NCBI GenBank assembly: GCA_000002445.1
Contig: CP000069.1
Location: 448,001 to 512,000 of the forward strand
Direction: 5' to 3'
DNA: 64,000 nucleotides
DNA from: Trypanosoma brucei
Lineage: Eukaryota
Shown here: one piece after another, positions 39,113 through 58,898 of the stretch
Layout: the number at the start of each line of letters is the position of its first letter
Position numbering within the stretch: position 1 is the stretch's first letter
Program-made: the position numbers and the translations under genes
The notes under the pieces: generated by a model
What the model was told of the DNA's origin: nothing
The model's input: the letters and a program-made list of their open reading frames with translations, nothing else
Database searches by the model: none

Positions 39113-39652
39113 CTCATAGCTTCCTAATTTGCACTATACAAAAGGACAAAAAAAAGAGGAAAGATATTCACACAACAAAGCGCACTCAGTACCCATCCTC
39201 CCTCTAATGTTAGTTTCCCAACCAATATACTGCACATCATATGCGCAGTAAACGTGAGCTAATATATATGGATATCTGGTGACCGCAACTGGCGGTTGCA
39301 ACAATAGCCAATACGGTGCACATAAATTTTATGAGTTCTTACGAACAAAGTTATTCCATCAACAATATGAAACACAAGATGATATATAAACACACAAGAC
39401 AAACAAACCCCATCTCTGCCAAATGCACTTTTACATTTCTGCGGGTGAGCCATTATTGGAGTCCCGTGGCAGTAAACACTATTACAAACATTATTCGGGA
39501 AAGCTTTGAAATAAGATATATAAAATAAGGAAATCAGTAACACAACACATTTGAATGCTTACATTAGTTTATAGAATATTGATGCGTATGATAGCGTTGC
39601 GGCAAACAGTTTACATTGCAATATGCTTTTGAATCGTTCCTTATTATGATAG

Positions 39653-40708
39653 TCAGATAAAACAGAGGGATACTGATAGTAACGTAATTTTGAGTGAGGG
39701 AAATGATGCAATATTCTGTTTTTGTGTTTGTGTGGGTTGAGCATCGGAATCCTTTCGTGCTGCAGTTTGGGGTGCTGTTCTCGAGGGTTGCGCGCCTTCA
39801 GCTCCAGCTCCAGATTCCTTTAATGCTTTTACTTCCTCTTCATTTTTCGCTTTACCGTAAGTTCCCTTTAACTTTTTAACTTTCTCTCTCAACTTTTGAA
39901 GAGCTGCATCTCTTTTATTCATGTGACCCATCGCCTGATTCAACTGCTCAACCCACGGCTTTGAAGCAAGTGGATCAGGTTCCTCCTCAACTCTTGGCGG
40001 TGGGGGAACGCCGTGTGGTGGGAACGGAGGTTGTGGTGGTGCTGGTGGCGGCTGTGGAGATCCGTTGTTTTGGCCATCTGAATACCAATTTCGCAAATCC
40101 TCCAAGTCCTGTTTTATAGCCTTAACAGTAACCTCAACGCTACCAGATCCTACTGTACACCTACCTTTAAGTTCCTTCCATAACTGCAGACGGTCTTCCG
40201 GTGTTTGATGCTCCCTCTGATTTTGAGCAGTTCCCGCAACAAAGCAGCTTTCAGTGGCTCCACTTGCAGAGCTGCAAAGGCATACAATTTCTTTCGGTAT
40301 TGTTGTTGAACGGCTTGTTTCATTGCAGGGTTGGTTTTCCCCACGGGATCCAAAAGTTTTGTCCGCATTCTCGGTTTCGATGTCATCCCCATACGCTGCT
40401 TTCCGAAACGCTGTCCTGGCGCTATTTTCATGACTCTGCACTTCGTCTTCTAACTCTTTAACTTTATCCACCTCTGTTTTCAAAGCCGCTGAATCCCTGG
40501 CACCTTTATTAAACCACTGATAATTACTATCATCTTTTAACTTATCAATGTAATTTTCTTTCGCTCCCTTTTCCGCCTTCGTGAAGAGTCCACACAAAAG
40601 ATCAAATCCCTTCCCGTGCTTCCTGTAGTCTATCACGTTATCGTCTCCAGCCGTTACCAACGTTACCGACACTCCCACAACGACCACTTGTACAATTGCT
40701 TGCCACAT
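39653..40708 (-). CDS. Array unit 1: predicted GPI-anchored surface protein (351 aa)
   Basis: N-terminal signal peptide (MWQAIVQVVVVGVSVTLVTAG), a Cys-containing central domain, a proline-rich hinge (PQPPPAPPQPPFPPHGVPPPP), and a C-terminal tail identical to the other copies ending in the hydrophobic SLKITLLSVSLCFI. Confidence 0.8.
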   Translation of the reverse strand: MWQAIVQVVVVGVSVTLVTAGDDNVIDYRKHGKGFDLLCGLFTKAEKGAKENYIDKLKDDSNYQWFNKGARDSAALKTEVDKVKELEDEVQSHENSARTAFRKAAYGDDIETENADKTFGSRGENQPCNETSRSTTIPKEIVCLCSSASGATESCFVAGTAQNQREHQTPEDRLQLWKELKGRCTVGSGSVEVTVKAIKQDLEDLRNWYSDGQNNGSPQPPPAPPQPPFPPHGVPPPPRVEEEPDPLASKPWVEQLNQAMGHMNKRDAALQKLREKVKKLKGTYGKAKNEEEVKALKESGAGAEGAQPSRTAPQTAARKDSDAQPTQTQKQNIASFPSLKITLLSVSLCFI

Positions 40709-42368
40709 TCCTGTGATTCTTCATTATGCACGACAAAGCAAGAAACAAAAAACAGAATTCACATTAAACACAACAGTAATATCAAATAAATGTTGTCTAT
40801 CATGACATGCGCATGTATTATCCCACAGAGCAGTTATTGACTTTCAACCATCGGCGCAAAATGATATATCTTCAAAGGCAGAGCAAACAAACTAACATAA
40901 CATCCAACAGGCCATCTCAACAAGCTCACTATACACGAGGATAGTAAATTCGTCAAATCACTTTACAGATGCCATCGTCGTGATTTCCATTAAACTTTCT
41001 GAATTCCATGTCCCTCTCTCTCTCTCTGAAAGGAATTTGCTTAAAGCATAACATCTAATTCCCCAAAAATGAGTTACACATCCCACATCAAGTCTTTCAC
41101 CCGCCTTACCCTGGTGTATTTCAATCACTCAACTTCTGACAATTCCTATATTCATATTCTTTTCGTTACACTTCCTTAAAATCCTTCCAGACAACCAAGC
41201 ACATCACATTGTTTTATCTTTACATCACTATTAAATGAACAGCAAAAAAAAAATGTACACATCTCCAACACACATGCCGAGTAAACTTCTTGACACCTGA
41301 GGCCGCTCCCACTCCAATCTCGATGGCCTTAACATCAATAACACTCTTGACTAACACTAATATTATTGTGTGATAAAAGAATTGGAAGGATACATTCCCT
41401 AACATGATACCGAAAATTACTGAAACACAAATGTGTAAAGAGTCTAGGAATGGATATACAAAAGGTGGTGTTTAGTAAGAGAAGGGCAATTAACTGCCAC
41501 CCGGAGTGTCTATTTCGTTTAACCTCATCCCGTATATTGTCAACAATACAAAGTCTTATAAAACACACCACCAGTTGTTCTCCAATAAATATACGTTATA
41601 CATGCCAATATCACAAACACTGCAACATCCTCTTTCTTCAACACTTCAAATACGTAACTCATATATCACTTGCTAAAGGTCTTAGTACCATATCCATGCC
41701 TCACTGAAGGGTTTGTGCCGTAACCCAATTAAATGTTGCTTCCTCTCCTCCTTCCATTTCCTCACAATAGGATACGCAGAGCTGCAACTTTGTAATATGT
41801 GCGCAGTTGATGGGGACTTCAGCCGTTATCACTTTAAATTGCAAATGGAAATTCTGAAACAATTCCAATACTCCCTCATGAATACCAACTGTTGCGTGTG
41901 TGTCTCCCATATACCGGCAGTTGCCATTACTGCAATGTTATGCTCAATGAGGATCTTTTTAATATCAAGTGTTAACGGCAACTATTTTATTGTTCATGTC
42001 AGGCTCATATTCATGTAAGTGAAATGGGTGAAACTGTTCTTTTCCTTACTTTGCATTATATAAATAAGAGGAAATAAGGGATGCTTGTTAGAGGCACGCA
42101 ACAGACACATACACATATGAGAGTTTCCATCCAACAATACATACATACCCTTTAAATAGTCCACCAACTGGAGGATGACACCAGCATGTCAGTGAGGGAA
42201 GCAGTATGTCTAGGAATAACATAAAAGACACGCGTGAAGGAATTTACATATTTGTTGCCTTGCTTTGCCTGCTGCGAATACCATATCACCTCCATCAGTA
42301 AAGTTACGGAATTCGGTAAACTTCCATGAATGCACATAAGCAACTGATACACACACACTTTTCCCTTC

Positions 42369-43034
42369 CTATTCCTCTCCTGCACAACTCACATGTTCAC
42401 TTGACGCACTGTCATCCGCTGCAGCAAGTAACTGTTGTCTTCCAGGTGGTTTCTCTCCAGTCAATGCACCACAGAAGCTTACAGTTACTGGCAAAACGGG
42501 TCTGCCCACATCATCAAGAGGAACTGCCTCAAGTTTCTCTAGCAGTGAGAGATCATCAATGGCACGTCCAAACACAACTTGCTTGAAATCAAGAGATGGA
42601 GAAGGACCAAGTGTAATGCCAAATACGGAGCCACTTGTGTGAGGACCCTCAGAGATCATTGTGAGGAGCCCACGTTCCGTGTGTCGGTGACGGTATCCTT
42701 CATCCGCTATTGGTGTGCCAGTGGAGGAGAGGTTAAAGGAATCCAATTCACCCAACACAATGATATTATTGTTGTGATCCACATGATGCACTTGTGTGCC
42801 AAGGTAATCCAATTTCACACCCGTGTTGGTGTCAATCCCACATGACCCAGTGATTAATGCCCTGAAGTTTTCTACGGTTTGTGGCACTACATCGTCAAAG
42901 AGCTCAAATACCAGTCGTCCGCTGAGAACGTCATCAATAGACATATCCAGGAAGGCACGGCAGGAGTTCTGTTCCTCCTTCATGCGATGACTCCGCTGGT
43001 AATTTTCCCATTCCTTTAAGCGGTGCTGTCTCAC
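42369..43034 (-). CDS. Array unit 1: divergent cyclophilin-like protein (PPIase-fold, probably non-catalytic)
   Basis: Matches the cyclophilin core: VFELFDDVVPQTVENFRALITG versus CypA [23 protein letters not shown], and TMISEGPHTSGSVFGITLG versus SMANAGPNTNGSQFFICTA. The functional start is probably the internal Met at 42983 (MKEEQNSC..). Confidence 0.8.
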   Translation of the reverse strand: MRQHRLKEWENYQRSHRMKEEQNSCRAFLDMSIDDVLSGRLVFELFDDVVPQTVENFRALITGSCGIDTNTGVKLDYLGTQVHHVDHNNNIIVLGELDSFNLSSTGTPIADEGYRHRHTERGLLTMISEGPHTSGSVFGITLGPSPSLDFKQVVFGRAIDDLSLLEKLEAVPLDDVGRPVLPVTVSFCGALTGEKPPGRQQLLAAADDSASSEHVSCAGEE

Positions 43035-43581
43035 ATAATCTCATAATTTCCTAGTTTGCACTTTACAAAAGGACAAAAAAAAAAGTAAATATATTGACAC
43101 AACGAAGCACACTCCGTACCCATCCTCCCTCTATTGTTAGTTTCCCAACCAATATACTGCACATTATATGCACAGTAAACGTAAGCTAAAATATATAGAT
43201 ATCTGGTAACCGCAACTGGCGGTTGTAACACTAGTCAATACGGTGCACATAAATTTTATACGAGTTCTTACGAACAAAGTTATTCCATCAACAATATGAA
43301 ACACAAAATGATATATAAACACACAAGACAAACAAACCCCATCTCTGCCAAATGCACTTTTACATTTCTACGGGTGAGCCATTATTGGAGTCCCGTGGCA
43401 GTAAACACTATTACAAACATTATTGGGGGAAGCTTTGGAATAGGATATATAAGACAAGGAAATCAGTAACACAACACATTTGAATGCTTACATTAATTTA
43501 TAGAATATTGATGCGTATGATAACGTTGCGGCAAACAGTTTACATTGCAATATGCTTTTGAATCGTATTTCATTATGATAG

Positions 43582-44607
43582 TCAGATAAAACAGAGGGAT
43601 ACTGACAGTAACGTAATTTTGAGTGAGGGGGATGATGCAATATTCTGTTTTTGTGTTTGTGTGGGTTGAGCATCGGAATCCTTTCGTGCTGCAGTTTGGG
43701 GTGCTGTTCTCGAGGGTTGCGCACCTTCAGCTCCAGCTCCAGATTCCTTTAATGCCTTTACTTCCTCTTCATTTTTCGCTTTACCGTAAGTTCCCCTCAA
43801 CTTTTCGACTTGCTCTCTCAACTTTTGAAGAGCCTCATCTCTTCCCTTCATGTGGTCTGTTGCCTCATTCAAGTTCTTAACCCACGGCTTAGAAGTAAAT
43901 ATATCAGGCTCCTCCTCAGGCATTGGTGGACCGCCGGGCGGCGGGGGTGGTGGACCGTCATGTATTGGTTTTTCAGGATACAATCCTCGCAAACCCTCCA
44001 AGTCCTTTCTTATGGCATCAACAGTAACCTCAACTCTATTGATACCCTTTGTACATTTTCCCTTAAGTTCAACCCATGCCTGAAGACCGTCTTCGGCGTT
44101 TCCGTTCTGGCCATACTCTCGGGCTTTCCCGCTCCCAAGGCAGTAGTCGGTGGCCTCACCAACAGAGCTGCAAGTGCAGACAATTTCTTTTGGTAATGCT
44201 GGCCACTCGCTAGCTGGGTTACAGGGCTGGTTGCCCCCATGGGACCCAAACGTTTTGTCCGCATCCTCTTTTTCAATGTTTTCCCCATACGCTGCTTTTT
44301 GAAACGATGACCTGGCGCCATTTTCATGACTCTTTACTTCGTCTTCTAACTCTTTAACTTTATCCACCTCCGCTTTTAAAGCTGGTGAATCCCTGGCATC
44401 TTTATTAAACCACTGATAATCTTCGGTTTCTTTTAACTTATCGAGGTGACTTTTTTCTTTCGCTCCCTTTTCTGCCTTCGTGAAGAGTGAGCACAAGAGA
44501 TCAAATCCCTTTTTGTTTTTTTCATGGTCAACTGCGTTATCGTCTTGAGCTGTTATCCGCGTTACCAACACTCCCACCATGACCACTTTCATAATTACTC
44601 TCCACAT
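43582..44607 (-). CDS. Array unit 2: predicted GPI-anchored surface protein (341 aa)
   Basis: Same architecture and invariant C-terminus. The central domain and a shorter Pro hinge (GPPPPPPGGPPMPEEEP) differ from the other copies. Confidence 0.8.
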   Translation of the reverse strand: MWRVIMKVVMVGVLVTRITAQDDNAVDHEKNKKGFDLLCSLFTKAEKGAKEKSHLDKLKETEDYQWFNKDARDSPALKAEVDKVKELEDEVKSHENGARSSFQKAAYGENIEKEDADKTFGSHGGNQPCNPASEWPALPKEIVCTCSSVGEATDYCLGSGKAREYGQNGNAEDGLQAWVELKGKCTKGINRVEVTVDAIRKDLEGLRGLYPEKPIHDGPPPPPPGGPPMPEEEPDIFTSKPWVKNLNEATDHMKGRDEALQKLREQVEKLRGTYGKAKNEEEVKALKESGAGAEGAQPSRTAPQTAARKDSDAQPTQTQKQNIASSPSLKITLLSVSLCFI

Positions 44608-46251
44608 AGATGTATACCTTTATTATTCGTAATAACAACACAGTAAAAAATAATAGAACATTCATAATAAACACTACAATAATATCAAATCAATGTTGTC
44701 TATCATAACATTGCGTATATTATCCCACAGAGCAAGTGTTAATTTTAAACTCTCGGCAGAAAGTGATATATCTTGCACAGGCAGAGCAAACAGGCTGAAA
44801 TAAAATAGCACCCAACAGGCCATCTCCACAAGTTCACTATACACACAAGAATGATAAATTCACTCAGTTACTCAACAGATGCCAGATATTTGATTTCCCA
44901 TAAACTTTTTTTATTCCTTACTGCTCTAACTCTCTGAAAGGAATTTCCCTCATACAGTAGATTCAGCTGGGTCAAGAAGAGGCACACATCCCACCTCAAC
45001 TTTTTCACCTGCCCAATTTCGGTTTATTTCGGCCAGATACCTTATGATAATTCCCATACTCATATCATTATAGTCACACTTTCTCCATGTCCTCTCAGAC
45101 ACACAAACAAATCATGTTCCTCAATCTTCACATCGCTGTTAAAAACAACAACAGCAAAAAGAAAATACCCACGGTATATTCATTGCTATCTTGTTCCAAA
45201 GCTAGTTCCGTGACCGTAACGTCAGCGACATTCCCTACGAACACAAATATTATCATGTGATAAAAGAATTGGAAGGACACATTTCCTAATATGAAACCGC
45301 AAATCACTGAAACACAAATGTGTAAAGTGTCTAGGAATGGATATACAAAAGGTGGTGTTTAGTGAGGGAAGGATTATTAACTGCCACCCAGTGTGTCTAT
45401 TTCTTTACACCTCATTTCGTATATTGTCAACAATACAAAGTCTTATAAAACATACCATCAGTTGTTCTCCAATAAATATACGTTATACATGCCAATATCA
45501 CAGACACTGCAACATCCTCTTTCTTCAACACTTCAAATACGTAACTCATATACTACTTGCTAAATGTCTTAGTACCATATCCATGCCTCACTGAAGGGTT
45601 TGTGCCGTAACCCAATTAAATGTTGCTTCCTCTCCTCCTTCCATTTCCTCACAATATGATACGCAGAGCTGCAACTTTGTAATATGTGCGCAGTTGATGG
45701 GGACTTCAGTGGTTATCACTTTAAATTGCAAATGGAAATTCTGAAACAGTTCCAATACTCCCTCATGAATACCAACTAGTGTGTGTCTCCCATATACTAG
45801 CAGTTGTCATTACTGCAATGTTATGCTCAATGAGGATCTTTTTATTATCAAGTGTTAGCGCCAACTATTTTATTGTTCATGTCAGGCTCATATTCATGTA
45901 AGTGAAATGGGTGAAACTGTTCTTTTCCTTACTTTGCATTATATAAATAAGAGGAAATAAGGAATGCTTGTTAGAGGCACTCAACAGACACATACACATA
46001 TGAGAGTTTCCATCCAACAATACATACATATCCTTTAAATAGTCCACCAACTGGAGGATGACACCAGCAGGTCAGTGAGGGAAGCAGTATGTCTAGGAAT
46101 AATATAAAAGACACGTGTGACAAAATTTACATATTTGTTGCCTTGCTTTGCCTGCTGCGAATACCATATCACCTCCATCAGTAAAGTTACGGAATTCGGT
46201 AAACTTCCATGAATGCACATAAGCAACTGATACACACACTCTCTTCCCTTT

Positions 46252-46866
46252 CTATTCCTCTCCTGCACAACTCACATGTTCACTTGACGCACTGTCATCC
46301 GCTGCAGCAGGTACCTGTTGTCTTCCAGGTGGTTTCTCTCCAGTCAATGCACCACAGAAGCTTACAGTTACTGGCAAAACGGGTCTGTCCACATCATCAA
46401 GAGGAACTGCCTCAAGTTTCTCTAGCAGTGAGAGATCATCAATGGCACGTCCAAACACAACTTGCTTGAAATCAAGAGATGGAGAAGGACCAAGTGTAAT
46501 GCCAAATACGGAGCCACTTGTGTGAGGACCCTCAGAGATCATTGTGAGAAGCCCACGTTCCGTGTGTCGGTGACGGTATCCTTCATCCGCTATTGGTGTG
46601 CCAGTGGAGGAGAGGTTAAAGGAATCCAATTCACCCAACACAATGATATTATTGTTGTGATCCACATGATGCACTTGTGTGCCAAGGTAATCCAATTTCA
46701 CACCCGTGTTGGTGTCAATCCCACATGACCCAGTGATTAATGCCCTGAAGTTTTCTACGGTTTGTGGCACTACATCGTCAAAGAGCTCAAATACCAGTCG
46801 TCCGCTGAGAACGTCATCGATGGACATGTCCAGGAAGGCACGGCAGGAGTTCTGTTCCTCCTTCAT
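46252..46866 (-). CDS. Array unit 2: cyclophilin-like protein (204 aa; an in-frame TAA removes the N-terminal extension seen in the other copies)
   Basis: Starts at the Met that is internal in the other copies. Plus-strand 46888-46890 reads tta (minus TAA), where the other units have ttc (GAA). Confidence 0.8.
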   Translation of the reverse strand: MKEEQNSCRAFLDMSIDDVLSGRLVFELFDDVVPQTVENFRALITGSCGIDTNTGVKLDYLGTQVHHVDHNNNIIVLGELDSFNLSSTGTPIADEGYRHRHTERGLLTMISEGPHTSGSVFGITLGPSPSLDFKQVVFGRAIDDLSLLEKLEAVPLDDVDRPVLPVTVSFCGALTGEKPPGRQQVPAAADDSASSEHVSCAGEE

Positions 46867-47466
46867 GCGATGACTCCGCTGGTAATTTTACCATTCCTTT
46901 AAGCGGTGCTGTCTCACATTATTTCATAATTTCCTAATTTGCACTCTACAGCAGGACAAAAAAAAAAAAGAGGAAATATATTGACACAGCAAAGCACACT
47001 CAGTACCCATCCTCCCTCTATTGTTAGTCTCCACACCAATATATTGCCCATTATATGCACAGGAAACGTAAGCTAAAATATATATAGATATCCGGTAACC
47101 GCAACTGGCGGTTGCAACAGTAGCCAACACGGTACACATAAATGTTTTAAGTTCTTACGAACAAAGTTATTCCATCAATAATATGAAACACAAAATGGCA
47201 TAAACACACAAGACAAACAAACCCCATCTCTGCCAAATGCACTTTTACATTTCTGTGGGTGAGCCATTATTGGAGTCCCGTGGCAGTAAACACTATTACA
47301 AACATTATTCGGAGAAGCTTTGAAATAAGATATATAAGACAAGGAAATCAGTAACACAACACATTTGAATGCTTACATTAGTTTATAGAATATTGATGCG
47401 TATGATAGCGTTGCGGCAAACAGTTTACATTGCAATATGCTTTTGAATCGTTCCTTATTATGATAG

Positions 47467-50097: not shown

Positions 50098-50763
50098 CTA
50101 TTCCTCTCCTGCACAACTCACATGTTCACTTGACGCACTGTCATCCGCTGCAGCAAGTAACTGTTGTCTTCCAGGTGGTTTCTCTCCAGTCAATGCACCA
50201 CAGAAGCTTACAGTTACTGGCAAAACGGGTCTGCCCACATCATCAAGAGGAACTGCCTCAAGTTTCTCTAGCAGTGAGAGATCATCAATGGCACGTCCAA
50301 ACACAACTTGCTTGAAATCAAGAGATGGAGAAGGACCAAGTGTAATGCCAAATACGGAGCCACTTGTGTGAGGACCCTCAGAGATCATTGTGAGGAGCCC
50401 ACGTTCCGTGTGTCGGTGACGGTATCCTTCATCCGCTATTGGTGTGCCAGTGGAGGAGAGGTTAAAGGAATCCAATTCACCCAACACAATGATATTATTG
50501 TTGTGATCCACATGATGCACTTGTGTGCCAAGGTAATCCAATTTCACACCCGTGTTGGTGTCAATCCCACATGACCCAGTGATTAATGCCCTGAAGTTTT
50601 CTACGGTTTGTGGCACTACATCGTCAAAGAGCTCAAATACCAGTCGTCCGCTGAGAACGTCATCAATAGACATATCCAGGAAGGCACGGCAGGAGTTCTG
50701 TTCCTCCTTCATGCGATGACTCCGCTGGTAATTTTCCCATTCCTTTAAGCGGTGCTGTCTCAC
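50098..50763 (-). CDS. Array unit 3: cyclophilin-like protein
   Basis: Same 221-aa ORF translation as units 1 and 4. Confidence 0.8.
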   Translation of the reverse strand: MRQHRLKEWENYQRSHRMKEEQNSCRAFLDMSIDDVLSGRLVFELFDDVVPQTVENFRALITGSCGIDTNTGVKLDYLGTQVHHVDHNNNIIVLGELDSFNLSSTGTPIADEGYRHRHTERGLLTMISEGPHTSGSVFGITLGPSPSLDFKQVVFGRAIDDLSLLEKLEAVPLDDVGRPVLPVTVSFCGALTGEKPPGRQQLLAAADDSASSEHVSCAGEE

Positions 50764-51316
50764 ATTATTTCATAATTTCCTAATTTGCACTCTACAGCAG
50801 GACAAAAAAAAAAAAGAGGAAATATATTGACACAGCAAAGCACACTCAGTACCCATCCTCCCTCTATTGTTAGTCTCCACACCAATATATTGCCCATTAT
50901 ATGCACAGGAAACGTAAGCTAAAATATATATAGATATCCGGTAACCGCAACTGGCGGTTGTAACACTAGTCAATACGGTGCACATAAATTTTATACGAGT
51001 TCTTACGAACAAAGTTATTCCATCAACAATATGAAACACAAAATGATATATAAACACACAAGACAAACAAACCCCATCTCTGCCAAATGCACTTTTACAT
51101 TTCTACGGGTGAGCCATTATTGGAGTCCCGTGGCAGTAAACACTATTACAAACATTATTGGGGGAAGCTTTGGAATAGGATATATAAGACAAGGAAATCA
51201 GTAACACAACACATTTGAATGCTTACATTAATTTATAGAATATTGATGCGTATGATAACGTTGCGGCAAACAGTTTACATTGCAATATGCTTTTGAATCG
51301 TTCCTTATTATGATAG

Positions 51317-52360
51317 TCAGATAAAACAGAGGGATACTGATAGTAACGTAATTTTGAGTGAGGGGGATGATGCAATATTCTGTTTTTGTGTTTGTGTGGG
51401 TTGAGCATCGGAATCCTTTCGTGCTGCAGTTTGGGGTGCTGTTCTCGAGGGTTGCGCACCTTCAGCTCCAGCTCCAGATTCCTTTAATGCCTTTACTTCC
51501 TCTTCATTTTTCGCTTTACCGTAAGTTCCCCTCAACTTTTCGACTTGCTCTCTCAACTTTTGAAGAGCCTCATCTCTTCCCTTCATGTGGTCTGTTGCCT
51601 CATTCAAGTTCTTAACCCACGGCTTAGAAGTAAATATATCAGGCTCCTCCTCAGGCATTGGTGGACTGCCAGGTGGGAACGGAGGTGGCGGTGGTGGCGG
51701 TGGAGGTTCTTGGCCTTTTGAGTCGTCTGAATACAAACCCCTCAAACCCTCCAAGTCCTTTTCTATAGCTTCGACAGTAACCTCGGCACTGCTGCTGGCA
51801 CTCGTACATTTTCCCTTAACTCCATTCCATGCCTGTAGACGCTGTTCAGCCGTGGTATCGTCGTGATTTCGGGCATTCTCGCTCCCACCGAAGCAGCTTT
51901 CAGTGGCACCTTGTGTGGGGCTGCAACTACAGATGATACTGTTAGGTATCGTTGACCATCGGTTTGTTTCGTCGCATGGATTGCCTACTGTATGGTGTCC
52001 AAAAGTTTTGTCCGCGTCCTCTTCTTCAATGTTATCCCCATAGGCTGCTTTCCGAAACGCTGTCTTGGCGCCACTTTCATGGCTCTGCACTTTGTTTTCT
52101 AACTCTTTAACTTTATCCACCTCCGCTTTTAAAGCTGGTGAATCCCTGGCATCTTTATTAAACCACTGATAATCTTCGGTTTCTTTTAGCTTATCGAGGT
52201 GACTTTTTTCTTTCGCTCCCTTTTCTGCCTTCGTGAAGAGTGAGCACAAGAGATCAAATCCCTTCTTGTCTTTCTCGTGGTCAATCCAGTCATTCTTTCC
52301 CATTGCAACTCCCGTTACCAACACTCCCACCATGACCACTTTCATAATTACTCTCCACAT
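51317..52360 (-). CDS. Array unit 4: predicted GPI-anchored surface protein (347 aa)
   Basis: Near-identical to unit 5, with about 6 amino-acid differences. Confidence 0.8.
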   Translation of the reverse strand: MWRVIMKVVMVGVLVTGVAMGKNDWIDHEKDKKGFDLLCSLFTKAEKGAKEKSHLDKLKETEDYQWFNKDARDSPALKAEVDKVKELENKVQSHESGAKTAFRKAAYGDNIEEEDADKTFGHHTVGNPCDETNRWSTIPNSIICSCSPTQGATESCFGGSENARNHDDTTAEQRLQAWNGVKGKCTSASSSAEVTVEAIEKDLEGLRGLYSDDSKGQEPPPPPPPPPFPPGSPPMPEEEPDIFTSKPWVKNLNEATDHMKGRDEALQKLREQVEKLRGTYGKAKNEEEVKALKESGAGAEGAQPSRTAPQTAARKDSDAQPTQTQKQNIASSPSLKITLLSVSLCFI

Positions 52361-53987
52361 AGATGTATACCTTTATTATTCGTAATAACAACACAGTAAA
52401 AAATAATAGAACATTAATATTAAACACTACAGTAATATCAAATCAATGTTGTCTATCATAACATTGCGTATATTATCCCACAGAGCAGTTATTACTGTTT
52501 AACTCTCAGCAGAAAGTGATATGCCATTCATAGGCAGAGCATGCAAACTAACATAACATCCAACAAGCCATCTCCACAAGCTCACTATACACGAGGATAG
52601 TAAATTCACGAAGTCACTTTACAGATGCCATCGTCGTGATTTCCCTCAATCTTTTTTTATTCCTTACTGCTCTAACTCTCTGAAAGGAATTTCCCTCATA
52701 CAGTAGATTCAGCTGGGTCAAAAAGAGGCACACATCCCACATCAAGTCTTTCACCTGCCTTATCCTGGTGTATTTCAACCACACACCTTCTAGGAATATT
52801 CATATATAATTATAGTCACACTTTCTCCATGTCCTCTCAGACACAAGAACAAATCATGATCCTCTACTTTTACATCACTATTAAATGAACAGCAAAAAGA
52901 AAATACACACAATATATTCATTGATATATGGTTCCCACTGCTGGTTCCGTGACCGTAATGTCAGTGACACATTTTACGAACACAAATACTATGATAAAAG
53001 AATTGGAAGGACACATTTCCTAACATGACACCGAAAATTACTGAAACACAAATGTGTAAAGTGTCTATGGATGGAAATGCAAAATATGTGGTGTTTAGTA
53101 AGGGAAGGATTATTAGCTGCCACCCGGAGTGTATATTTCTTTACACCTCATTTCGTATCTTGTCAACAATACAAAGTCTTATAAAACACACCACCAGTTG
53201 TTCTCCAATAAATATACGTTATACATGCCAATATCACAGACACTGCAACATCCTCTTTCTTCAACACTTCAAATACGTAACTCATATATCACTTGCTAAA
53301 GGTCTTAGTACCATATCCATGCCTCACTGAAGGGTTTGTGCCGTAACCCAATTAAATGTTGCTTCCTCTCCTCCTTCCATTTCCTCACAATATGATACGC
53401 AGAGCTGCAACTTTGTAATATGTGCGCAGTTGATGGGGACTTCAGTGGTTATCACTTTAAATTGCAAATGGAAATTCTGAAACAGTTCCAATACTCCCTC
53501 ATGAATACCAACTAGTGTGTGTCTCCCATATACTAGCAGTTGTCATTACTGCAATGTTATGCTCAATGAGGATCTTTTTATTATCAAGTGTTAGCGCCAA
53601 CTATTTTATTGTTCATGTCAGGCTCATATTCATGTAAGTGAAATGGGTGAAACTGTTCTTTTCCTTACTTTGCATTATATAAATAAGAGGAAATAAGGAA
53701 TGCTTGTTAGAGGCACTCAACAGACACATACACATATGAGAGTTTCCATCCAACAATACATACATATCCTTTAAATAGTCCACCAACTGGAGGATGACAC
53801 CAGCAGGTCAGTGAGGGAAGCAGTATGTCTAGGAATAATATAAAAGACACGTGTGACAAAATTTACATATTTGTTGCCTTGCTTTGCCTGCTGCGAATAC
53901 CATATCACCTCCATCAGTAAAGTTACGGAATTCGGTAAACTTCCATGAATGCACATAAGCAACTGATACACACACACTTTTCCCTTC

Positions 53988-54653
53988 CTATTCCTCTCCT
54001 GCACAACTCACATGTTCACTTGACGCACTGTCATCCGCTGCAGCAAGTAACTGTTGTCTTCCAGGTGGTTTCTCTCCAGTCAATGCACCACAGAAGCTTA
54101 CAGTTACTGGCAAAACGGGTCTGCCCACATCATCAAGAGGAACTGCCTCAAGTTTCTCTAGCAGTGAGAGATCATCAATGGCACGTCCAAACACAACTTG
54201 CTTGAAATCAAGAGATGGAGAAGGACCAAGTGTAATGCCAAATACGGAGCCACTTGTGTGAGGACCCTCAGAGATCATTGTGAGGAGCCCACGTTCCGTG
54301 TGTCGGTGACGGTATCCTTCATCCGCTATTGGTGTGCCAGTGGAGGAGAGGTTAAAGGAATCCAATTCACCCAACACAATGATATTATTGTTGTGATCCA
54401 CATGATGCACTTGTGTGCCAAGGTAATCCAATTTCACACCCGTGTTGGTGTCAATCCCACATGACCCAGTGATTAATGCCCTGAAGTTTTCTACGGTTTG
54501 TGGCACTACATCGTCAAAGAGCTCAAATACCAGTCGTCCGCTGAGAACGTCATCAATAGACATATCCAGGAAGGCACGGCAGGAGTTCTGTTCCTCCTTC
54601 ATGCGATGACTCCGCTGGTAATTTTCCCATTCCTTTAAGCGGTGCTGTCTCAC
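53988..54653 (-). CDS. Array unit 4: cyclophilin-like protein
   Basis: Same 221-aa ORF translation as units 1 and 3. Confidence 0.8.
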   Translation of the reverse strand: MRQHRLKEWENYQRSHRMKEEQNSCRAFLDMSIDDVLSGRLVFELFDDVVPQTVENFRALITGSCGIDTNTGVKLDYLGTQVHHVDHNNNIIVLGELDSFNLSSTGTPIADEGYRHRHTERGLLTMISEGPHTSGSVFGITLGPSPSLDFKQVVFGRAIDDLSLLEKLEAVPLDDVGRPVLPVTVSFCGALTGEKPPGRQQLLAAADDSASSEHVSCAGEE

Positions 54654-55202
54654 ATAATCTCATAATTTCCTAGTTTGCACTTTACAAAAGGACAAAAAAA
54701 AAAGTAAATATATTGACACAACGAAGCACACTCCGTACCCATCCTCCCTCTATTGTTAGTTTCCCAACCAATATACTGCACATTATATGCACAGTAAACG
54801 TAAGCTAAAATATATATAGATATCTGGTAACCGCAACTGGCGGTTGTAACACTAGTCAATACGGTGCACATAAATTTTATACGAGTTCTTACGAACAAAG
54901 TTATTCCATCAACAATATGAAACACAAAATGATATATAAACACACAAGACAAACAAACCCCATCTCTGCCAAATGCACTTTTACATTTCTACGGGTGAGC
55001 CATTATTGGAGTCCCGTGGCAGTAAACACTATTACAAACATTATTGGGGGAAGCTTTGGAATAGGATATATAAGACAAGGAAATCAGTAACACAACACAT
55101 TTGAATGCTTACATTAATTTATAGAATATTGATGCGTATGATAACGTTGCGGCAAACAGTTTACATTGCAATATGCTTTTGAATCGTATTTCATTATGAT
55201 AG

Positions 55203-56246
55203 TCAGATAAAACAGAGGGATACTGACAGTAACGTAATTTTGAGTGAGGGGGATGATGCAATATTCTGTTTTTGTGTTTGTGTGGGTTGAGCATCGGAAT
55301 CCTTTCGTGCTGCAGTTTGGGGTGCTGTTCTCGAGGGTTGCGCACCTTCAGCTCCAGCTCCAGATTCCTTTAATGCCTTTACTTCCTCTTCATTTTTCGC
55401 TTTACCGTAAGTTCCCTTTAACTTTTTGACTTGCTCTCTCAACTTTTGAAGAGCCTCATCTCTTCCCTTCATGTGGTCTGTTGCCTCATTCAAGTTCTTA
55501 ACCCATGGCTTAGAAGCAAATTGATCAGGCTTCTCCTCAGGCATTGGTGGACTGCCAGGTGGGAACGGAGGTGGCGGTGGTGGCGGTGGAGGTTCTTGGC
55601 CTTTTGAGTCGTCTGAATACAAAGCCCTCAAACCCTCCAAGTCCTTTTCTATAGCTTCGACAGTAACCTCGGCACTGCTGCTGGCACTCGTACATTTTCC
55701 CTTAACTCCATTCCATGCCTGTAGACGCTGTTCAGCCGTGGTATCGTCGTGATTTCGGGCATTCTCGCTCCCACCGAAGCAGCTTTCAGTGGCACCTTGT
55801 GTGGGGCTGCAACTACAGATGATACTGTTAGGTATCGTTGACCATCGGTTTGTTTCGTCGCATGGATTGCCTACTGTATGGTGTCCAAAAGTTTTGTCCG
55901 CGTCCTCTTCTTCAATGTTATCCCCATAGGCTGCTTTCCGAAACGCTGTCTTGGCGCCACTTTCATGGCTCTGCACTTTGTTTTCTAACTCTTTAACTTT
56001 ATCCACCTCCGCTTTTAAAGCTGGTGAATCCCTGGCATCTTTATTAAACCACTGATAATCTTCGGTTTCTTTTAGCTTATCGAGGTGACTTTTTTCTTTC
56101 GCTCCCTTTTCTGCCTTCGTGAAGAGTGAGCACAAGAGATCAAATCCCTTCTTGTCTTTCTCGTGGTCAATCCAGTCATTCTTTCCCATTGCAACTCCCG
56201 TTACCAACACTCCCACCATGACCACTTTCATAATTACTCTCCACAT
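55203..56246 (-). CDS. Array unit 5: predicted GPI-anchored surface protein (347 aa)
   Basis: See unit 4. Confidence 0.8.
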   Translation of the reverse strand: MWRVIMKVVMVGVLVTGVAMGKNDWIDHEKDKKGFDLLCSLFTKAEKGAKEKSHLDKLKETEDYQWFNKDARDSPALKAEVDKVKELENKVQSHESGAKTAFRKAAYGDNIEEEDADKTFGHHTVGNPCDETNRWSTIPNSIICSCSPTQGATESCFGGSENARNHDDTTAEQRLQAWNGVKGKCTSASSSAEVTVEAIEKDLEGLRALYSDDSKGQEPPPPPPPPPFPPGSPPMPEEKPDQFASKPWVKNLNEATDHMKGRDEALQKLREQVKKLKGTYGKAKNEEEVKALKESGAGAEGAQPSRTAPQTAARKDSDAQPTQTQKQNIASSPSLKITLLSVSLCFI

Positions 56247-57873
56247 AGATGTATACCTTTATTATTCGTAATAACAACACAGTAAAAAATAATAGAACAT
56301 TAATATTAAACACTACAGTAATATCAAATCAATGTTGTCTATCATAACATTGCGTATATTATCCCACAGAGCAGTTATTACTGTTTAACTCTCAGCAGAA
56401 AGTGATATGCCATTCATAGGCAGAGCATGCAAACTAACATAACATCCAACAAGCCATCTCCACAAGCTCACTATACACGAGGATAGTAAATTCACGAAGT
56501 CACTTTACAGATGCCATCGTCGTGATTTCCCTCAATCTTTTTTTATTCCTTACTGCTCTAACTCTCTGAAAGGAATTTCCCTCATACAGTAGATTCAGCT
56601 GGGTCAAAAAGAGGCACACATCCCACATCAAGTCTTTCACCTGCCTTATCCTGGTGTATTTCAACCACACACCTTCTAGGAATATTCATATATAATTATA
56701 GTCACACTTTCTCCATGTCCTCTCAGACACAAGAACAAATCATGATCCTCTACTTTTACATCACTATTAAATGAACAGCAAAAAGAAAATACACACAATA
56801 TATTCATTGATATATGGTTCCCACTGCTGGTTCCGTGACCGTAATGTCAGTGACACATTTTACGAACACAAATACTATGATAAAAGAATTGGAAGGACAC
56901 ATTTCCTAACATGACACCGAAAATTACTGAAACACAAATGTGTAAAGTGTCTATGGATGGAAATGCAAAATATGTGGTGTTTAGTAAGGGAAGGATTATT
57001 AGCTGCCACCCGGAGTGTATATTTCTTTACACCTCATTTCGTATCTTGTCAACAATACAAAGTCTTATAAAACACACCACCAGTTGTTCTCCAATAAATA
57101 TACGTTATACATGCCAATATCACAGACACTGCAACATCCTCTTTCTTCAACACTTCAAATACGTAACTCATATATCACTTGCTAAAGGTCTTAGTACCAT
57201 ATCCATGCCTCACTGAAGGGTTTGTGCCGTAACCCAATTAAATGTTGCTTCCTCTCCTCCTTCCATTTCCTCACAATATGATACGCAGAGCTGCAACTTT
57301 GTAATATGTGCGCAGTTGATGGGGACTTCAGTGGTTATCACTTTAAATTGCAAATGGAAATTCTGAAACAGTTCCAATACTCCCTCATGAATACCAACTA
57401 GTGTGTGTCTCCCATATACCGGCAGTTGCCATTACTGCAATGTTATGCTCAATGAGGATCTTTTTATTATCAAGTGTTAGCGCCAACTATTTTATTGTTC
57501 ATGTCAGGCTCATATTCATGTAAGTGAAATGGGTGAAACTGTTCTTTTCCTTACTTTGCATTATATAAATAAGAGGAAATAAGGGATGCTTGTTAGAGGC
57601 ACGCAACAGACACATACACATATGAGAGTTTCCATCCAACAATACATACATATCCTTTAAATAGTCCACCAACTGGAGGATGACACCAGCAGGTCAGTGA
57701 GGGAAGCAGTATGTCTAGGAATAATATAAAAGACACGTGTGACAAAATTTACATATTTGTTGCCTTGCTTTGCCTGCTGCGAATACCATATCACCTCCAT
57801 CAGTAAAGTTACGGAATTCGGTAAACTTCCATGAATGCACATAAGCAACTGATACACACACACTTTTCCCTTC

Positions 57874-58692
57874 CTATTCCTCTCCTGCACAACTCACATG
57901 TTCACTTGACGCACTGTCATCCGCTGCAGCAGGTACCTGTTGTCTTCCAGGTGGTTTCTCTCCAGTCAATGCACCACAGAAGCTTACAGTTACTGGCAAA
58001 ACGGGTCTGCCCACATCATCAAGAGGAACTGCCTCAAGTTTCTCTAGCAGTGAGAGATCATCAATAGCACGTCCAAACACAACTTGCTTGAAATCAAGAG
58101 ATGGAGAAGGACCAAGTGTAATGCCAAATACGGAGCCACTTGTGTGAGGACCCTCAGAGATCATTGTGAGAAGCCCACGTTCCGTGTGTCGGTGACGGTA
58201 TCCTTCATCCGCTATTGGTGTGCCAGTGGAGGAGAGGTTAAAGGAATCCAATTCACCCAACACAATGATATTATTGTTGTGATCCACATGATGCACTTGT
58301 GTGCCAAGGTAATCCAATTTCACACCCGTGTTGGTGTCAATCCCACATGACCCAGTGATTAATGCCCTGAAGTTTTCTACGGTTCGCGGCACTACATCGT
58401 CAAAGAGTTCAAATACCAGTCGTCCGCTGAGAACGTCATCAATGGACATATCCAGGAAGGCACGGCAGGAGTTCTGTTCCTCCTTCATGCGATGACTCCG
58501 CTGGTAATTTTCCCATTCTTTTAAACGGCGCTCCTCCACATCGTCGTAACGACTCTGAAGTGTCGCAGAGTCTTCATCATTTTCTGGTCGTTGTAACCTC
58601 GAATCTCCCTTTTTCCTGCGGGAGTGCCGTACACCTTCTAGTTTTGTCGTTGACATCAAAACAATCACTAGGCCTATTCCGCGCTGAAGCAA
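57874..58692 (-). CDS. Array unit 5 (first in transcription order): cyclophilin-like protein with a unique 68-aa N-terminal extension (272-aa ORF)
   Basis: Same core as the other copies with two substitutions (Q to R in VVPRTVENF; QQVPAAADD). The upstream part lies outside the repeat and so carries unique sequence. The true start may still be the internal Met at 58488. Confidence 0.75.
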   Translation of the reverse strand: MLQRGIGLVIVLMSTTKLEGVRHSRRKKGDSRLQRPENDEDSATLQSRYDDVEERRLKEWENYQRSHRMKEEQNSCRAFLDMSIDDVLSGRLVFELFDDVVPRTVENFRALITGSCGIDTNTGVKLDYLGTQVHHVDHNNNIIVLGELDSFNLSSTGTPIADEGYRHRHTERGLLTMISEGPHTSGSVFGITLGPSPSLDFKQVVFGRAIDDLSLLEKLEAVPLDDVGRPVLPVTVSFCGALTGEKPPGRQQVPAAADDSASSEHVSCAGEE

Positions 58693-58898
58693 GATGTCGA
58701 ATAAGTGAATGCTATCTCAATCCTCTGAAGTTTTAAAATGAAAGCCGAAGAAAGAGGAGAAATAAAGGATGGAAGAGTGAGGGATGCTGGGCGTATTGGT
58801 AGTGTAACCATAAACACTATAGGTGATGTGAAAACAATGATTCCCTGAAGCCTCTTGGGTGGGGGTAAGGGAAGATAAAGGAGGAGAAAGAAGATCAG

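What the first reader, a model, noticed from the sequence alone, without database searches (positions are those of the whole stretch)
39113..58530. Five-unit tandem array pairing a diversifying GPI-anchored surface protein gene with a cyclophilin-like gene
About 19.4 kb of the window is a head-to-tail array of five ~3.9 kb units. Each unit has two co-oriented genes: a signal-peptide/GPI-signal protein of 341-351 aa and a divergent cyclophilin-like protein. The two genes are amplified together as one cassette but evolve differently within it, variable surface gene versus invariant cyclophilin-like gene. This suggests a functional pairing, for example a dedicated folding or proline-isomerisation partner or a co-expressed pseudoenzyme for a proline-hinged surface protein, rather than chance adjacency. 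The copy number (5) and the architecture of N-terminal helical domain, hinge, invariant tail and GPI signal recall trypanosome triple-helical-bundle surface families of the BARP/GARP/MISP type. I cannot confirm that identity from sequence alone.
Basis: partly seen in the sequence, partly recalled or inferred. Interest (0 to 1): 0.85.

Follow-up and report, generated by a model that had tools for sequence, protein, structure and literature searches.

The report
Known trypanosome surface-gene array with passenger cyclophilin
This is the already described five-copy "Fam1" array of VSG-derived surface protein genes on Trypanosoma brucei chromosome 6; the cyclophilin-like gene is interleaved only because the duplicated block happens to include most of that neighbouring housekeeping gene, so the two are probably not functional partners.

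Summary
Positions 39105-58532 (minus strand) hold five head-to-tail units of 3.85-3.93 kb. Each carries one signal-peptide/GPI-signal gene (341-351 aa) and one cyclophilin-type ORF.

The window is T. brucei brucei TREU927 chromosome 6. The surface genes are "Fam1" (Jackson 2013), a T. brucei-specific family derived from b-type VSG, not BARP/GARP/MISP.

The cyclophilin is a conserved single-copy kinetoplastid gene (Leishmania "CYP9") and the last gene of a conserved synteny block. It has no signal peptide and a degenerate active site.

The repeat edge lies inside its coding sequence. Only the promoter-proximal copy is full length (260 aa). The other four lack 41 codons, including a near-invariant N-terminal motif. 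The cyclophilin copies are therefore best read as hitch-hikers, so functional pairing is not supported.

Extra result: the variable block is 1.6 kb and includes about 800 nt of non-coding DNA. Divergence there is ancient (dS 0.35-0.85, against 0.02-0.05 between subspecies), mosaic, and shows no window with dN/dS above 1. Its flanks are homogenised.

Verdict: already known, and of low interest.

The parts
39105..58532 (-). Whole tandem array. Five units: U1 39105-43031, U2 43032-46914, U3 46915-50760, U4 50761-54650, U5 54651-58532.
   Evidence: Self-BLAST offsets of 3835-3927 nt and their multiples; five-copy direct-repeat families; MAFFT alignment of the units.
39653..40708 (-). Fam1 copy 1, 351 aa (AAZ11694/XP_845253). 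It is the last gene of the transcription unit and the most divergent type.
   Evidence: ORF; Pfam VSG_B E 3.7e-11, 43.3 bits against a cutoff of 25; exact database match.
43582..44607 (-). Fam1 copy 2, 341 aa (AAZ11696).
47467..48504 (-). Fam1 copy 3, 345 aa (AAZ11698).
51317..52360 (-). Fam1 copy 4, 347 aa (AAZ11700).
55203..56246 (-). Fam1 copy 5, 347 aa (AAZ11702), 98% identical to copy 4.
57874..58656 (-). The only full-length cyclophilin-like gene, 260 aa (AAZ11703/XP_845262). It is the orthologue of kinetoplastid 'CYP9'.
   Evidence: Pfam PF00160 E 2e-24; orthologues at 46-76% identity from T. vivax to Leishmania; AF2 model pLDDT 86 with a cyclophilin barrel plus an N-terminal helix at residues 26-54.
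58533..58656 (-). The 5' 41 codons of the cyclophilin, which lie outside the repeat. They encode the first part of the conserved N-terminal helix/motif (..YDDVEE|RRLKEW..).
   Evidence: Repeat edge at 58532; junction comparison; conservation of DVEERRLKEWENYQRSHR.
53988..54602 (-). 5'-truncated cyclophilin copy in U4 (204 aa from the first ATG, M57). Identical copies lie at 50098-50712 (U3) and 42369-42983 (U1).
   Evidence: Three out-of-frame upstream ATGs lie between the poly-pyrimidine tract and this ATG.
46252..46866 (-). 5'-truncated cyclophilin copy in U2 (204 aa, AAZ11697). It has an in-frame TAA in the remnant of the N-terminal motif, upstream of the ATG.
54645..54655 (-). Unit junction motif ATGTGAGACAG, where the Fam1 3' flank joins cyclophilin codon ~42. 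The same motif occurs at 50755-50765, 46909-46919 and 43026-43036.
   Evidence: All four junctions carry the same derived sequence, which points to a single founding event.
58535..58542 (-). Parental microhomology GATGTGGA at the upstream edge of the array. Its partner is at 39103-39110, at the downstream edge.
   Evidence: sequence comparison.
55420..57050 (-). Variable block of unit 5; the equivalent register applies in the other units. It comprises about 800 nt of non-coding DNA upstream of Fam1, the N-terminal domain and the Pro hinge.
   Evidence: Mean pairwise identity is 60-88% here, against 93-100% elsewhere. Non-coding K2P is 0.17-0.39, similar to coding K2P of 0.24-0.36. Conversion tracts are mosaic.
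36320..37252 (+). Convergent 310-aa SP/TM gene that marks the end of the transcription unit (strand-switch region). It has an orthologue in T. congolense, where it directly faces the cyclophilin.
   Evidence: BLASTP 34% identity, E 9e-56.

Best explanation
The array is the T. brucei-specific 'Fam1' locus.

Origin of the pair (inferred from synteny). A gene derived from a b-type VSG N-terminal domain lost the VSG C-terminal domain. It gained a poly-proline spacer, a short helical/disordered tail and a GPI signal. It settled at the very end of a Pol II polycistronic unit, between the last gene of a conserved synteny block (a degenerate cyclophilin) and a convergent gene.

Formation of the array (shown for the junction, inferred for the mechanism). 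One illegitimate recombination at an 8-nt microhomology (GATGTGGA) joined the Fam1 3' flank to codon ~42 of the cyclophilin. This created a 3.9 kb unit. Unequal crossing-over then changed the copy number.

The cyclophilin pieces. They are passengers defined by where the breakpoint fell. Only the promoter-proximal copy is complete. The four internal copies lack the conserved N-terminal helix/motif and their native 5' region. They are kept near-identical to the intact copy by gene conversion, not by selection for a partnership.

The mosaic pattern. Concerted evolution homogenises the cyclophilin, most of the spacer, the Fam1 tail and the 3' flank. A 1.6 kb core (upstream non-coding DNA, N-domain and hinge) persists as at least six ancient sequence types that are shuffled in patches.

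Function (inferred, with literature support). The array lets one cell co-express several isoforms of a VSG-like GPI-anchored protein. Published work places it in the flagellar pocket and endosomes, with transcripts in metacyclic and bloodstream forms. It is probably a receptor-like or immune-exposed invariant-expression protein.
For: Identity:
- The proteins match T. b. brucei TREU927 AAZ11694-AAZ11703 at 100%, on a 1,618,915-bp contig.
- Salivary-gland and metacyclic transcripts are reported (PMC3378594).
- The duplication Tb927.6.1310-.1390 is noted as absent from DAL972 and STIB805 (PMC4288722).

VSG-B relationship:
- Pfam VSG_B scores 34-47 bits against a cutoff of 25.
- In the exhaustive profile search, the only non-self hits other than one proline-repeat protein are T. 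brucei b-type VSGs, E 6.5e-8 to 7e-4.
- The best fold matches are VSG615, ISG65, FHR and HpHbR, but the model is of low confidence.

Passenger status of the cyclophilin:
- The repeat edge at 58532 lies inside the coding sequence.
- The truncated copies start at M57 and lose DVEERRLKEWENYQRSHR, which is invariant or nearly so across kinetoplastids, together with the confidently modelled helix 26-54.
- U2 has an in-frame stop in the motif remnant.
- Three out-of-frame upstream ATGs precede the main ATG.
- Orthologues are single genes within the conserved block Cyclin-280aa-250aa-MATH-UPF0220-229aa-cyclophilin in T. vivax, T. congolense, T. cruzi, T. melophagium and Leptomonas. Unrelated genes lie downstream in each.
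- There is no Fam1 remnant in T. congolense.
- Relative to human CypA the active site carries R55H, F60/M61 deleted, N102S, Q111V, F113G, W121S and H126Q.
- The N-terminus is highly charged, so there is no signal peptide.

Ancient mosaic core:
- dS is 0.35-0.85 in the core, against 0.02-0.054 for neighbouring genes between subspecies and about 0.03 between cyclophilin copies.
- Non-coding K2P is 0.17-0.39.
- Similarity is patchwise.
- The single T. b. gambiense and T. equiperdum copies are each a distinct type, about 70% identical to every TREU927 copy.
Against: - No expression data could be examined, so I cannot show that the truncated cyclophilin copies are untranslated or functionless. All four keep open reading frames over the whole cyclophilin domain, and a poly-pyrimidine tract with AG lies just upstream. 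They may be trans-spliced and could raise the dosage of a truncated protein.
- In T. vivax the same cyclophilin is also followed by a helical-bundle surface protein gene of the HpHbR family. That could be read as recurrent pairing rather than a shared insertion hot spot.
- The age argument relies on NG86 estimates across recombining sequences and on single-copy assemblies that might be collapsed.
- Jackson 2013 quotes 0.1-3.2% nucleotide divergence for the array. This disagrees with my 15-23% between types over the coding sequence.
Confidence: 0.85

Rival explanations
1. Functional cassette. The cyclophilin-like protein is a dedicated folding or proline-isomerisation partner, or a co-expressed pseudoenzyme, for the proline-hinged surface protein. 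The two are amplified together for that reason.
For: The two genes alternate strictly in all five units. Fam1 has a long poly-Pro hinge. T. vivax also has a GPI-type helical surface gene directly downstream of the orthologous cyclophilin.
Against: The cyclophilin is conserved at 46-76% identity in species without Fam1. It is adjacent to unrelated genes in T. cruzi, T. melophagium, Leptomonas and T. congolense. It has no signal peptide, whereas the Fam1 hinge is lumenal or extracellular. Its catalytic residues are replaced. Four of the five copies are breakpoint-truncated and lose the family's most conserved motif. From established knowledge, trypanosome polycistronic units do not group genes by function.
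Confidence: 0.04
2. Recent strain-specific duplication. A single cyclophilin-Fam1 pair was amplified in the TREU927 lineage, as the literature implies, and the Fam1 N-domains then diversified very fast under positive selection.
For: DAL972, STIB805 and T. equiperdum OVI show one copy. Flanks and cyclophilin copies are 95-100% identical. U4 and U5 are indeed a very recent duplicate.
Against: Synonymous divergence (0.35-0.85) and non-coding divergence (K2P 0.17-0.39) in the core are 10-40 times the between-subspecies background. dN/dS is below 1 in every window. The T. b. gambiense and T. equiperdum copies are distinct types that share patches with different TREU927 copies. Divergence rises towards both unit edges, and 7 of 23 nt differ next to the junction, as expected for an old array with concerted evolution.
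Confidence: 0.08
3. The surface genes are members of the BARP/GARP/MISP (Fam50) triple-helical-bundle family.
For: They share five copies, a GPI anchor, a helical N-domain and salivary-gland-stage transcripts. The Foldseek list includes other trypanosome three-helix-bundle receptors.
Against: Pfam assigns VSG_B above threshold and nothing else. The exhaustive profile search finds only b-type VSGs and no Fam50 protein. The literature places MISP (Tb927.7.360-440) on chromosome 7 and names this family Fam1.
Confidence: 0.02
4. The array is selected for cyclophilin dosage. The truncated 204-aa cyclophilin-domain proteins are functional products, and Fam1 is the passenger.
For: All four truncated ORFs are intact across the whole PF00160 domain. 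A poly-pyrimidine tract with AG sits upstream of each.
Against: The invariant N-terminal motif and helix are lost. Upstream out-of-frame ATGs and one in-frame stop are present. Sequence identity is explained by gene conversion. Other subspecies manage with one copy.
Confidence: 0.08

Closest known systems
Fam1 of the African-trypanosome cell-surface phylome (Jackson et al. 2013, PMC3605285; Tb927.6.1310 and paralogues)
   Same: [quoted passage not shown]
   Different: Nothing differs in kind. The main text of that paper does not mention the interleaved cyclophilin (0 occurrences of the word). It quotes 0.1-3.2% divergence, whereas I measure 15-23% between coding-sequence types.
b-type variant surface glycoproteins (Pfam VSG_B, PF13206)
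   Same: The N-terminal domain is homologous, and the protein has a GPI anchor and a signal peptide. Variation is mosaic and segmental, reminiscent of VSG mosaics.
   Different: There is no VSG C-terminal domain (no PF10659 hit). Only about 150 residues align to the 352-position profile. The genes are chromosome-internal, at the end of a housekeeping Pol II unit, rather than subtelomeric or in an expression site. All copies are potentially co-expressed, so this is not a monoallelic switching system.
ESAG6/7 transferrin receptor and other VSG-derived or helical-bundle receptors (HpHbR, FHR, ISG65)
   Same: These are VSG-like folds re-used as GPI-anchored proteins of the flagellar pocket or surface. 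Multiple sequence variants are maintained by recombination.
   Different: No ligand is known for Fam1. The relationship is an analogy in likely mode of action, not tested membership.
MISP/BARP/GARP (Fam50)
   Same: A five-copy tandem array, a GPI anchor and tsetse salivary-gland-stage transcripts.
   Different: A different chromosome (7) and no detectable sequence relationship. Fam1 matches VSG_B instead.
Kinetoplastid cyclophilin 'CYP9' and degenerate cyclophilins such as PPIL6
   Same: It has the PF00160 fold (TM about 0.9 to solved cyclophilins) with its canonical catalytic residues replaced, as in 'probable inactive' PPIL6. PPIL6 is the top PDB sequence hit.
   Different: PPIL6 scores only 1.4 bits above PPIH, so orthology is not established. 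The kinetoplastid proteins have their own conserved N-terminal helix motif, EERRLKEWENYQRSHR.

Membership tests
Fam1 (T. brucei VSG-like hypothetical GPI proteins, Jackson 2013) | [quoted passage not shown] | tested here: met
   Five units. The genes lie at the end of a minus-strand unit facing a plus-strand gene. The contig is TREU927, 1,618,915 bp. The description matches.
Fam1 (T. brucei VSG-like hypothetical GPI proteins, Jackson 2013) | About 347 aa with a signal peptide and GPI signal, restricted to T. brucei | tested here: met
   Lengths are 341-351 aa, with a hydrophobic N-terminus and a C-terminal ...ASS/PSLKITLLSVSLCFI. GPI prediction is published. Only T. brucei subspecies appear among the hits in 5.8 billion proteins. 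There is no remnant at the syntenic sites of T. congolense, T. vivax or T. cruzi.
VSG b-type N-terminal domain (PF13206) | Score above the Pfam gathering threshold | tested here: met
   Scores are 34.3-46.7 bits against a cutoff of 25 for the four distinct copies scanned. Copy 5, which is 98% identical to copy 4, was not scanned separately.
Canonical VSG | VSG C-terminal domain (PF10659) and a subtelomeric or expression-site location | tested here: not met
   There is no PF10659 hit, although the related VSGs have one. The neighbours are core housekeeping genes.
BARP/GARP/MISP (Fam50) | Detectable sequence homology to Fam50 members | tested here: not met
   The exhaustive profile search returns only b-type VSGs and one proline-repeat protein. 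No other Pfam family is matched.
BARP/GARP/MISP (Fam50) | Triple-helical-bundle ectodomain | tested here: inconclusive
   The AF2 model has mean pLDDT 54.7. It has confident long helices at 28-107 and 247-294, but the region 111-177 is unresolved. The best Foldseek hits are VSG615, ISG65, FHR and HpHbR, at E of 0.12 or weaker.
Cyclophilin-type PPIase (PF00160) | Cyclophilin beta-barrel domain | tested here: met
   Pfam E 2e-24. AF2 pLDDT 86. Foldseek TM about 0.9 to many solved cyclophilins.
Cyclophilin-type PPIase (PF00160) | Catalytic and CsA-binding residues of human CypA (R55, F60, Q63, N102, Q111, F113, W121, H126) | tested here: not met
   The alignment shows R55H, a 5-residue deletion covering F60/M61, N102S, Q111V, F113G, W121S and H126Q. 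The human CypA sequence and residue list are from memory. Enzymatic activity was not tested.
PPIL6/RSP12 radial-spoke cyclophilin | Specific orthology (reciprocal best hit, axonemal location) | tested here: inconclusive
   PPIL6 is the top PDB sequence hit, but at 101.6 bits against 100.2 for other cyclophilins. It ranks 11th by fold. Localisation cannot be tested here.

The most novel reading that the evidence does not exclude
The Fam1 core types are old alleles or paralogues. They predate the T. brucei subspecies by an order of magnitude in synonymous divergence and are kept apart by balancing selection while their flanks are homogenised. On this reading the 'TREU927-specific duplication' is really an ancient array. 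It expands and contracts, with different lineages retaining different types. Fam1 would then be a polymorphic VSG-derived receptor or immune target of metacyclic and bloodstream forms, analogous to ESAG6/7. The truncated cyclophilin segments would at most serve as spacer and RNA-processing sequence.
Probability: 0.3. Interest if true: 0.45.

Novelty: already known. Interest (0 to 1): 0.2.

Why it matters
The locus has little value as a discovery. It is annotated in the reference genome, and the family and its array are published.

Its value here is corrective. A striking alternation of two gene types in a trypanosome array need not mean they work together. It can simply reflect where a duplication breakpoint fell at the end of a polycistronic unit.

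Two smaller points may interest trypanosome specialists:
- The variable cores of this non-VSG surface family are far older than the subspecies and are mosaic. This argues for array contraction, not recent expansion, in the single-copy strains, and for long-term maintenance of variants.
- The position just after this cyclophilin is a synteny break that hosts a different lineage-specific surface gene in each trypanosome examined.

Tried and rejected
- MISP/BARP identity. phmmer of a Fam1 copy against all PDB sequences found nothing. The family profile gave only a weak VSG615 hit plus poly-Pro artefacts. Rejected in favour of VSG_B.
- Homology between Fam1 and the T. vivax HpHbR-family gene at the same position. 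BLASTP gave E 0.68 and hhalign a probability of 0.9%. No relationship was detected.
- PPIL6/RSP12 orthology of the cyclophilin. It is not distinguishable from other cyclophilins by sequence or fold.
- Positive selection. Pairwise and sliding-window NG86 gave no dN/dS above 1. This is a crude test that ignores recombination.
- tRNA, Rfam and tandem-repeat scans of the window, to characterise the strand-switch region. All were empty.
- Literature searches for the cyclophilin gene IDs (Tb927.6.1320-.1400) and for Leishmania CYP9 function. They returned nothing usable. The exact TriTrypDB numbering of each copy is therefore inferred, so I cite GenBank accessions instead.
- Fam10/SGM1 (Vigneron 2020). 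This is a different family.
- AlphaFold of Fam1 from 7 sequences. The model is too poor in the putative top lobe to settle the fold.


Full report
**1. The observation**

A self-comparison of 37-61 kb shows one repeated block, 39105-58532, with offsets of 3835-3927 nt and their multiples. The repeat finder gives five-copy families spaced 3826-3929 nt.

All the genes are on the minus strand. Five ORFs of 351, 341, 345, 347 and 347 aa have a hydrophobic N-terminus, a poly-proline stretch, a near-identical C-terminal ~100 residues and a hydrophobic C-terminal end. They alternate with five cyclophilin-type ORFs. None is disrupted.

**2. Where the window comes from**

Every ORF of the array matches at 100% a protein of Trypanosoma brucei brucei TREU927 on a 1,618,915-bp contig. 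The proteins are AAZ11694-AAZ11703 (XP_845253-XP_845262). The surface proteins are annotated 'hypothetical protein, conserved / VSG B-type N-terminal domain-containing', and the others 'cyclophilin-type peptidyl-prolyl cis-trans isomerase, putative'.

The rest of the window encodes ordinary core genes on the same strand: proteasome subunit, mitoribosomal DAP3, eIF2B-like, DNAAF5-like, a MATH protein and UPF0220. A single plus-strand gene at 36320-37252 faces the array. The array therefore sits at the end of a polycistronic unit, at a convergent strand switch.

**3. What the surface genes are**

The four distinct copies scanned pass the Pfam gathering score for VSG_B (PF13206; 34-47 bits against a cutoff of 25) and hit nothing else. 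Copy 5, which is 98% identical to copy 4, was not scanned separately.

A profile of the seven known family members was searched without a word filter against 1.84 billion representative proteins. It returned the family itself, one proline-repeat artefact and five T. brucei b-type VSGs (E 6.5e-8 to 7e-4). These VSGs carry full VSG_B domains and mostly VSG C-terminal domains.

The word-indexed search of 5.8 billion proteins found only six clusters, all from T. brucei subspecies. PDB sequence searches gave nothing significant.

An AlphaFold model from this shallow alignment is poor, with mean pLDDT 54.7. It shows confident long helices at 28-107 and 247-294 and an unresolved cysteine-rich middle. 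Its best Foldseek matches, all non-significant, are VSG615, ISG65, the factor H receptor and HpHbR.

The literature settles the identity. Jackson et al. 2013 describe 'Fam1' as follows (PMC3605285):
- 347 aa, with a signal peptide and GPI anchor;
- unique to T. brucei;
- with tagged Tb927.6.1310 found in the flagellar pocket and endosomes of bloodstream forms.

Savage et al. 2012 found its transcripts enriched in salivary-gland parasites and present in metacyclics (PMC3378594). MISP/BARP (Fam50) is a different five-copy array on chromosome 7.

**4. What the cyclophilin is**

It has a bona fide cyclophilin fold: Pfam PF00160 E 2e-24, an AlphaFold model with pLDDT 86, and TM about 0.9 to many solved cyclophilins.

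It has orthologues throughout Kinetoplastida, with these identities to the T. brucei protein:

| Species | Identity |
|---|---|
| T. vivax | 71% |
| T. congolense | 76% |
| T. cruzi | 61% |
| Phytomonas | 51% |
| Leptomonas / Leishmania 'CYP9' | 46-47% |

Aligned with human CypA (sequence and key residues recalled from memory), the canonical active-site and cyclosporin-binding residues are replaced: R55H, a 5-residue deletion over F60/M61, N102S, Q111V, F113G, W121S and H126Q. 'Cyclophilin-like, probably inactive' is a fair description. The top PDB sequence hit is 'probable inactive' PPIL6, but only 1.4 bits ahead of ordinary cyclophilins.

The kinetoplastid proteins share an N-terminal motif, DVEERRLKEWENYQRSHR, that is invariant or nearly so. 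In the model it forms a confident long helix at residues 26-54. The N-terminus is highly charged with no hydrophobic core, so I infer there is no signal peptide.

**5. Anatomy of the repeat unit: the key point for the 'pairing' idea**

The upstream edge of the array (58532) lies inside the cyclophilin coding sequence, at about codon 42 of 260. So only the promoter-proximal copy (57874-58656) is complete.

The four internal copies begin at '..RLKEWENYQRSHR', but that remnant is preceded by an in-frame stop. Their first ATG is M57, giving the 204-aa products annotated in GenBank. In U2 the remnant itself contains a TAA. Three out-of-frame ATGs lie between the upstream poly-pyrimidine tract and M57.

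The two parental edges share the octamer GATGTGGA, at 58535-58542 and 39103-39110. All four internal junctions carry the same derived sequence, ATGTGAGACAG. This indicates one founding microhomology-mediated event followed by unequal crossing-over.

The cyclophilin is thus in the unit because of where a breakpoint fell. What is amplified is a fragment lacking the family's most conserved element.

**6. Synteny**

The block Cyclin-280aa-250aa-MATH-UPF0220-229aa-cyclophilin is conserved in T. b. gambiense, T. vivax, T. congolense, T. cruzi, T. melophagium and Leptomonas. Synteny ends immediately after the cyclophilin:

| Species | What lies downstream of the cyclophilin |
|---|---|
| T. vivax | an HpHbR-family gene |
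| T. cruzi | two unknown genes, then a trans-sialidase |
| T. melophagium | a methyltransferase, then GP63 |
| Leptomonas | a hydrolase |
| T. congolense | directly the convergent orthologue of window 36320-37252 (34% identity, E 9e-56), with no Fam1 remnant |

So the cyclophilin is the last core gene before a break point that collects lineage-specific, often surface, genes. Such breaks are a known general feature of trypanosomatid genomes (my background knowledge). Fam1 was inserted there in the T. brucei lineage.

T. b. gambiense has exactly one full-length cyclophilin and one Fam1 gene.

**7. Why the pairing hypothesis fails**

- The cyclophilin long predates Fam1 and is conserved where Fam1 is absent.
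- Its neighbours differ in every lineage.
- It lacks a signal peptide, whereas the Fam1 hinge and ectodomain are lumenal or extracellular.
- Its catalytic residues are gone.
- Four of the five copies are truncated by the duplication breakpoint.
- Gene order in trypanosome polycistronic units is not organised by function (established knowledge).

The one observation that could be read the other way is the helical surface gene at the same position in T. vivax. It shows no sequence relationship to Fam1, and a shared insertion hot spot explains it more simply.

**8. The pattern of variation**

Across the five units, mean pairwise identity varies by region:

| Region | Identity |
|---|---|
| Cyclophilin and the ~900 nt after it | 95-100% |
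| 1.6 kb variable block | 60-88% |
| Fam1 tail and 3' flank | 93-98% |
| Last 100 nt of the unit | 87% |

The variable block is not only coding. It includes about 800 nt upstream of the Fam1 ATG, whose K2P distance (0.17-0.39) equals that of the N-domain coding sequence (0.24-0.36).

In the mature N-domain, dS is 0.35-0.85 and dN is 0.17-0.31, so dN/dS is 0.3-0.6. No 30-codon window exceeds about 0.5. For scale, neighbouring genes differ between T. b. brucei and T. b. gambiense by dS 0.02-0.054. The cyclophilin copies within the array differ by dS of about 0.03. T. brucei against T. congolense is saturated.

Similarity is mosaic:
- Copies 2 and 4 are 96-100% identical over the 5' UTR and first ~250 nt, and again over the tail, but only 57-66% identical in between.
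- Copies 2 and 3 are 91-94% identical only in a central patch.
- Copy 1 and the T. b. gambiense gene are 97% identical in one 160-nt patch and 55-61% a little further on.

The single T. b. gambiense and T. equiperdum genes are each about 70% identical to every TREU927 copy. Next to the junction, 7 of 23 nt differ from the parental cyclophilin sequence, while the following several hundred nt are virtually identical.

Together this fits an old array under concerted evolution. The core types are far older than the subspecies and are exchanged in patches. It fits less well the 'duplication in TREU927 only' reading implied in PMC4288722. U4 and U5 are a genuinely recent duplicate, with 100% identity over the core.

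I note a discrepancy with the '0.1-3.2% nucleotide divergence' quoted in PMC3605285. Between types I measure 15-23% over the coding sequence, and only copies 4 and 5 differ by as little as 1.0%.

**9. How it most likely works**

Shown:
- the anatomy of the unit;
- the truncation of four cyclophilin copies;
- the VSG-B relationship;
- the synteny break;
- the mosaic, ancient core.

From the literature:
- pocket and endosome localisation;
- the stage profile of the transcripts.

Inferred:
- The array lets one cell transcribe several Fam1 isoforms from the tail of a Pol II unit.
- Stage regulation presumably acts through the homogenised 3' flank.
- The N-domain variants are maintained either by selection (host antibody or ligand polymorphism, as argued for ESAG6/7) or by recombination suppression due to their own divergence.
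- The cyclophilin fragments are passengers that may at most provide spacer and RNA-processing signals.

**10. Verdict**

The feature is already known. The incremental points (breakpoint inside the cyclophilin, ancient mosaic cores, insertion hot spot) are of modest specialist interest.

Noticed in passing
L001 (T. equiperdum OVI, CM010677.1) 9569-9785, compared with L002 2057-9780: In this assembly about 7.7 kb present in T. b. gambiense is missing. The missing part covers the rest of a 302-aa gene, MATH, UPF0220, the 229-aa gene, the cyclophilin and the spacer. Fam1 therefore abuts a truncated gene and has no adjacent cyclophilin. No T. equiperdum protein is in the cyclophilin's 90% cluster. 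I could not tell whether this is a real deletion of five core genes or a misassembly.
   Followed up: partly
L003 11706-12977 (T. vivax); also L004, L005: Directly downstream of the orthologous cyclophilin, T. vivax has a 423-aa gene of the haptoglobin-haemoglobin-receptor family (PF20933), at the position occupied by Fam1 in T. brucei. It shows no sequence similarity to Fam1 (BLASTP E 0.68; hhalign probability 0.9%).
   Followed up: partly
window 27632-36319: About 8.7 kb lies between two minus-strand gene runs with no ORF of 200 aa or more and no tRNA, Rfam family or tandem repeat. It is presumably the divergent strand-switch or transcription-start region. The stretch 29660-40923 is only about 94% identical to T. 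b. gambiense, against 98.7% for 57150-64000.
   Followed up: partly
window 36320-37252 (+): A 310-aa protein with a signal peptide and a C-terminal transmembrane helix, and no Pfam match, lies convergent to the array. It has a fast-evolving orthologue in T. congolense (34% identity, dN 0.65) but is nearly identical among T. brucei subspecies.
   Followed up: partly
window 38546-39112 (-): A 188-aa ORF starts exactly at the downstream edge of the array. Its ATGATGTGGA overlaps the microhomology used for the founding duplication, and it lies just after a poly-pyrimidine tract. No gene is called at the equivalent place in T. b. gambiense, so it is probably not coding.
   Followed up: no
window 57874-58656 (-): The cyclophilin's best PDB sequence match is PPIL6, the 'probable inactive' radial-spoke cyclophilin seen in axoneme structures (9fqr, 8j07). 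The margin over other cyclophilins is negligible, so a flagellar role is only a lead.
   Followed up: partly
PMC3605285, compared with window 39653-56246: The published figure of 0.1-3.2% nucleotide divergence for the Fam1 array does not match the 15-23% divergence I measure between the four coding-sequence types. The published Figure 6 legend also says chromosome 5 where the text says chromosome 6.
   Followed up: partly
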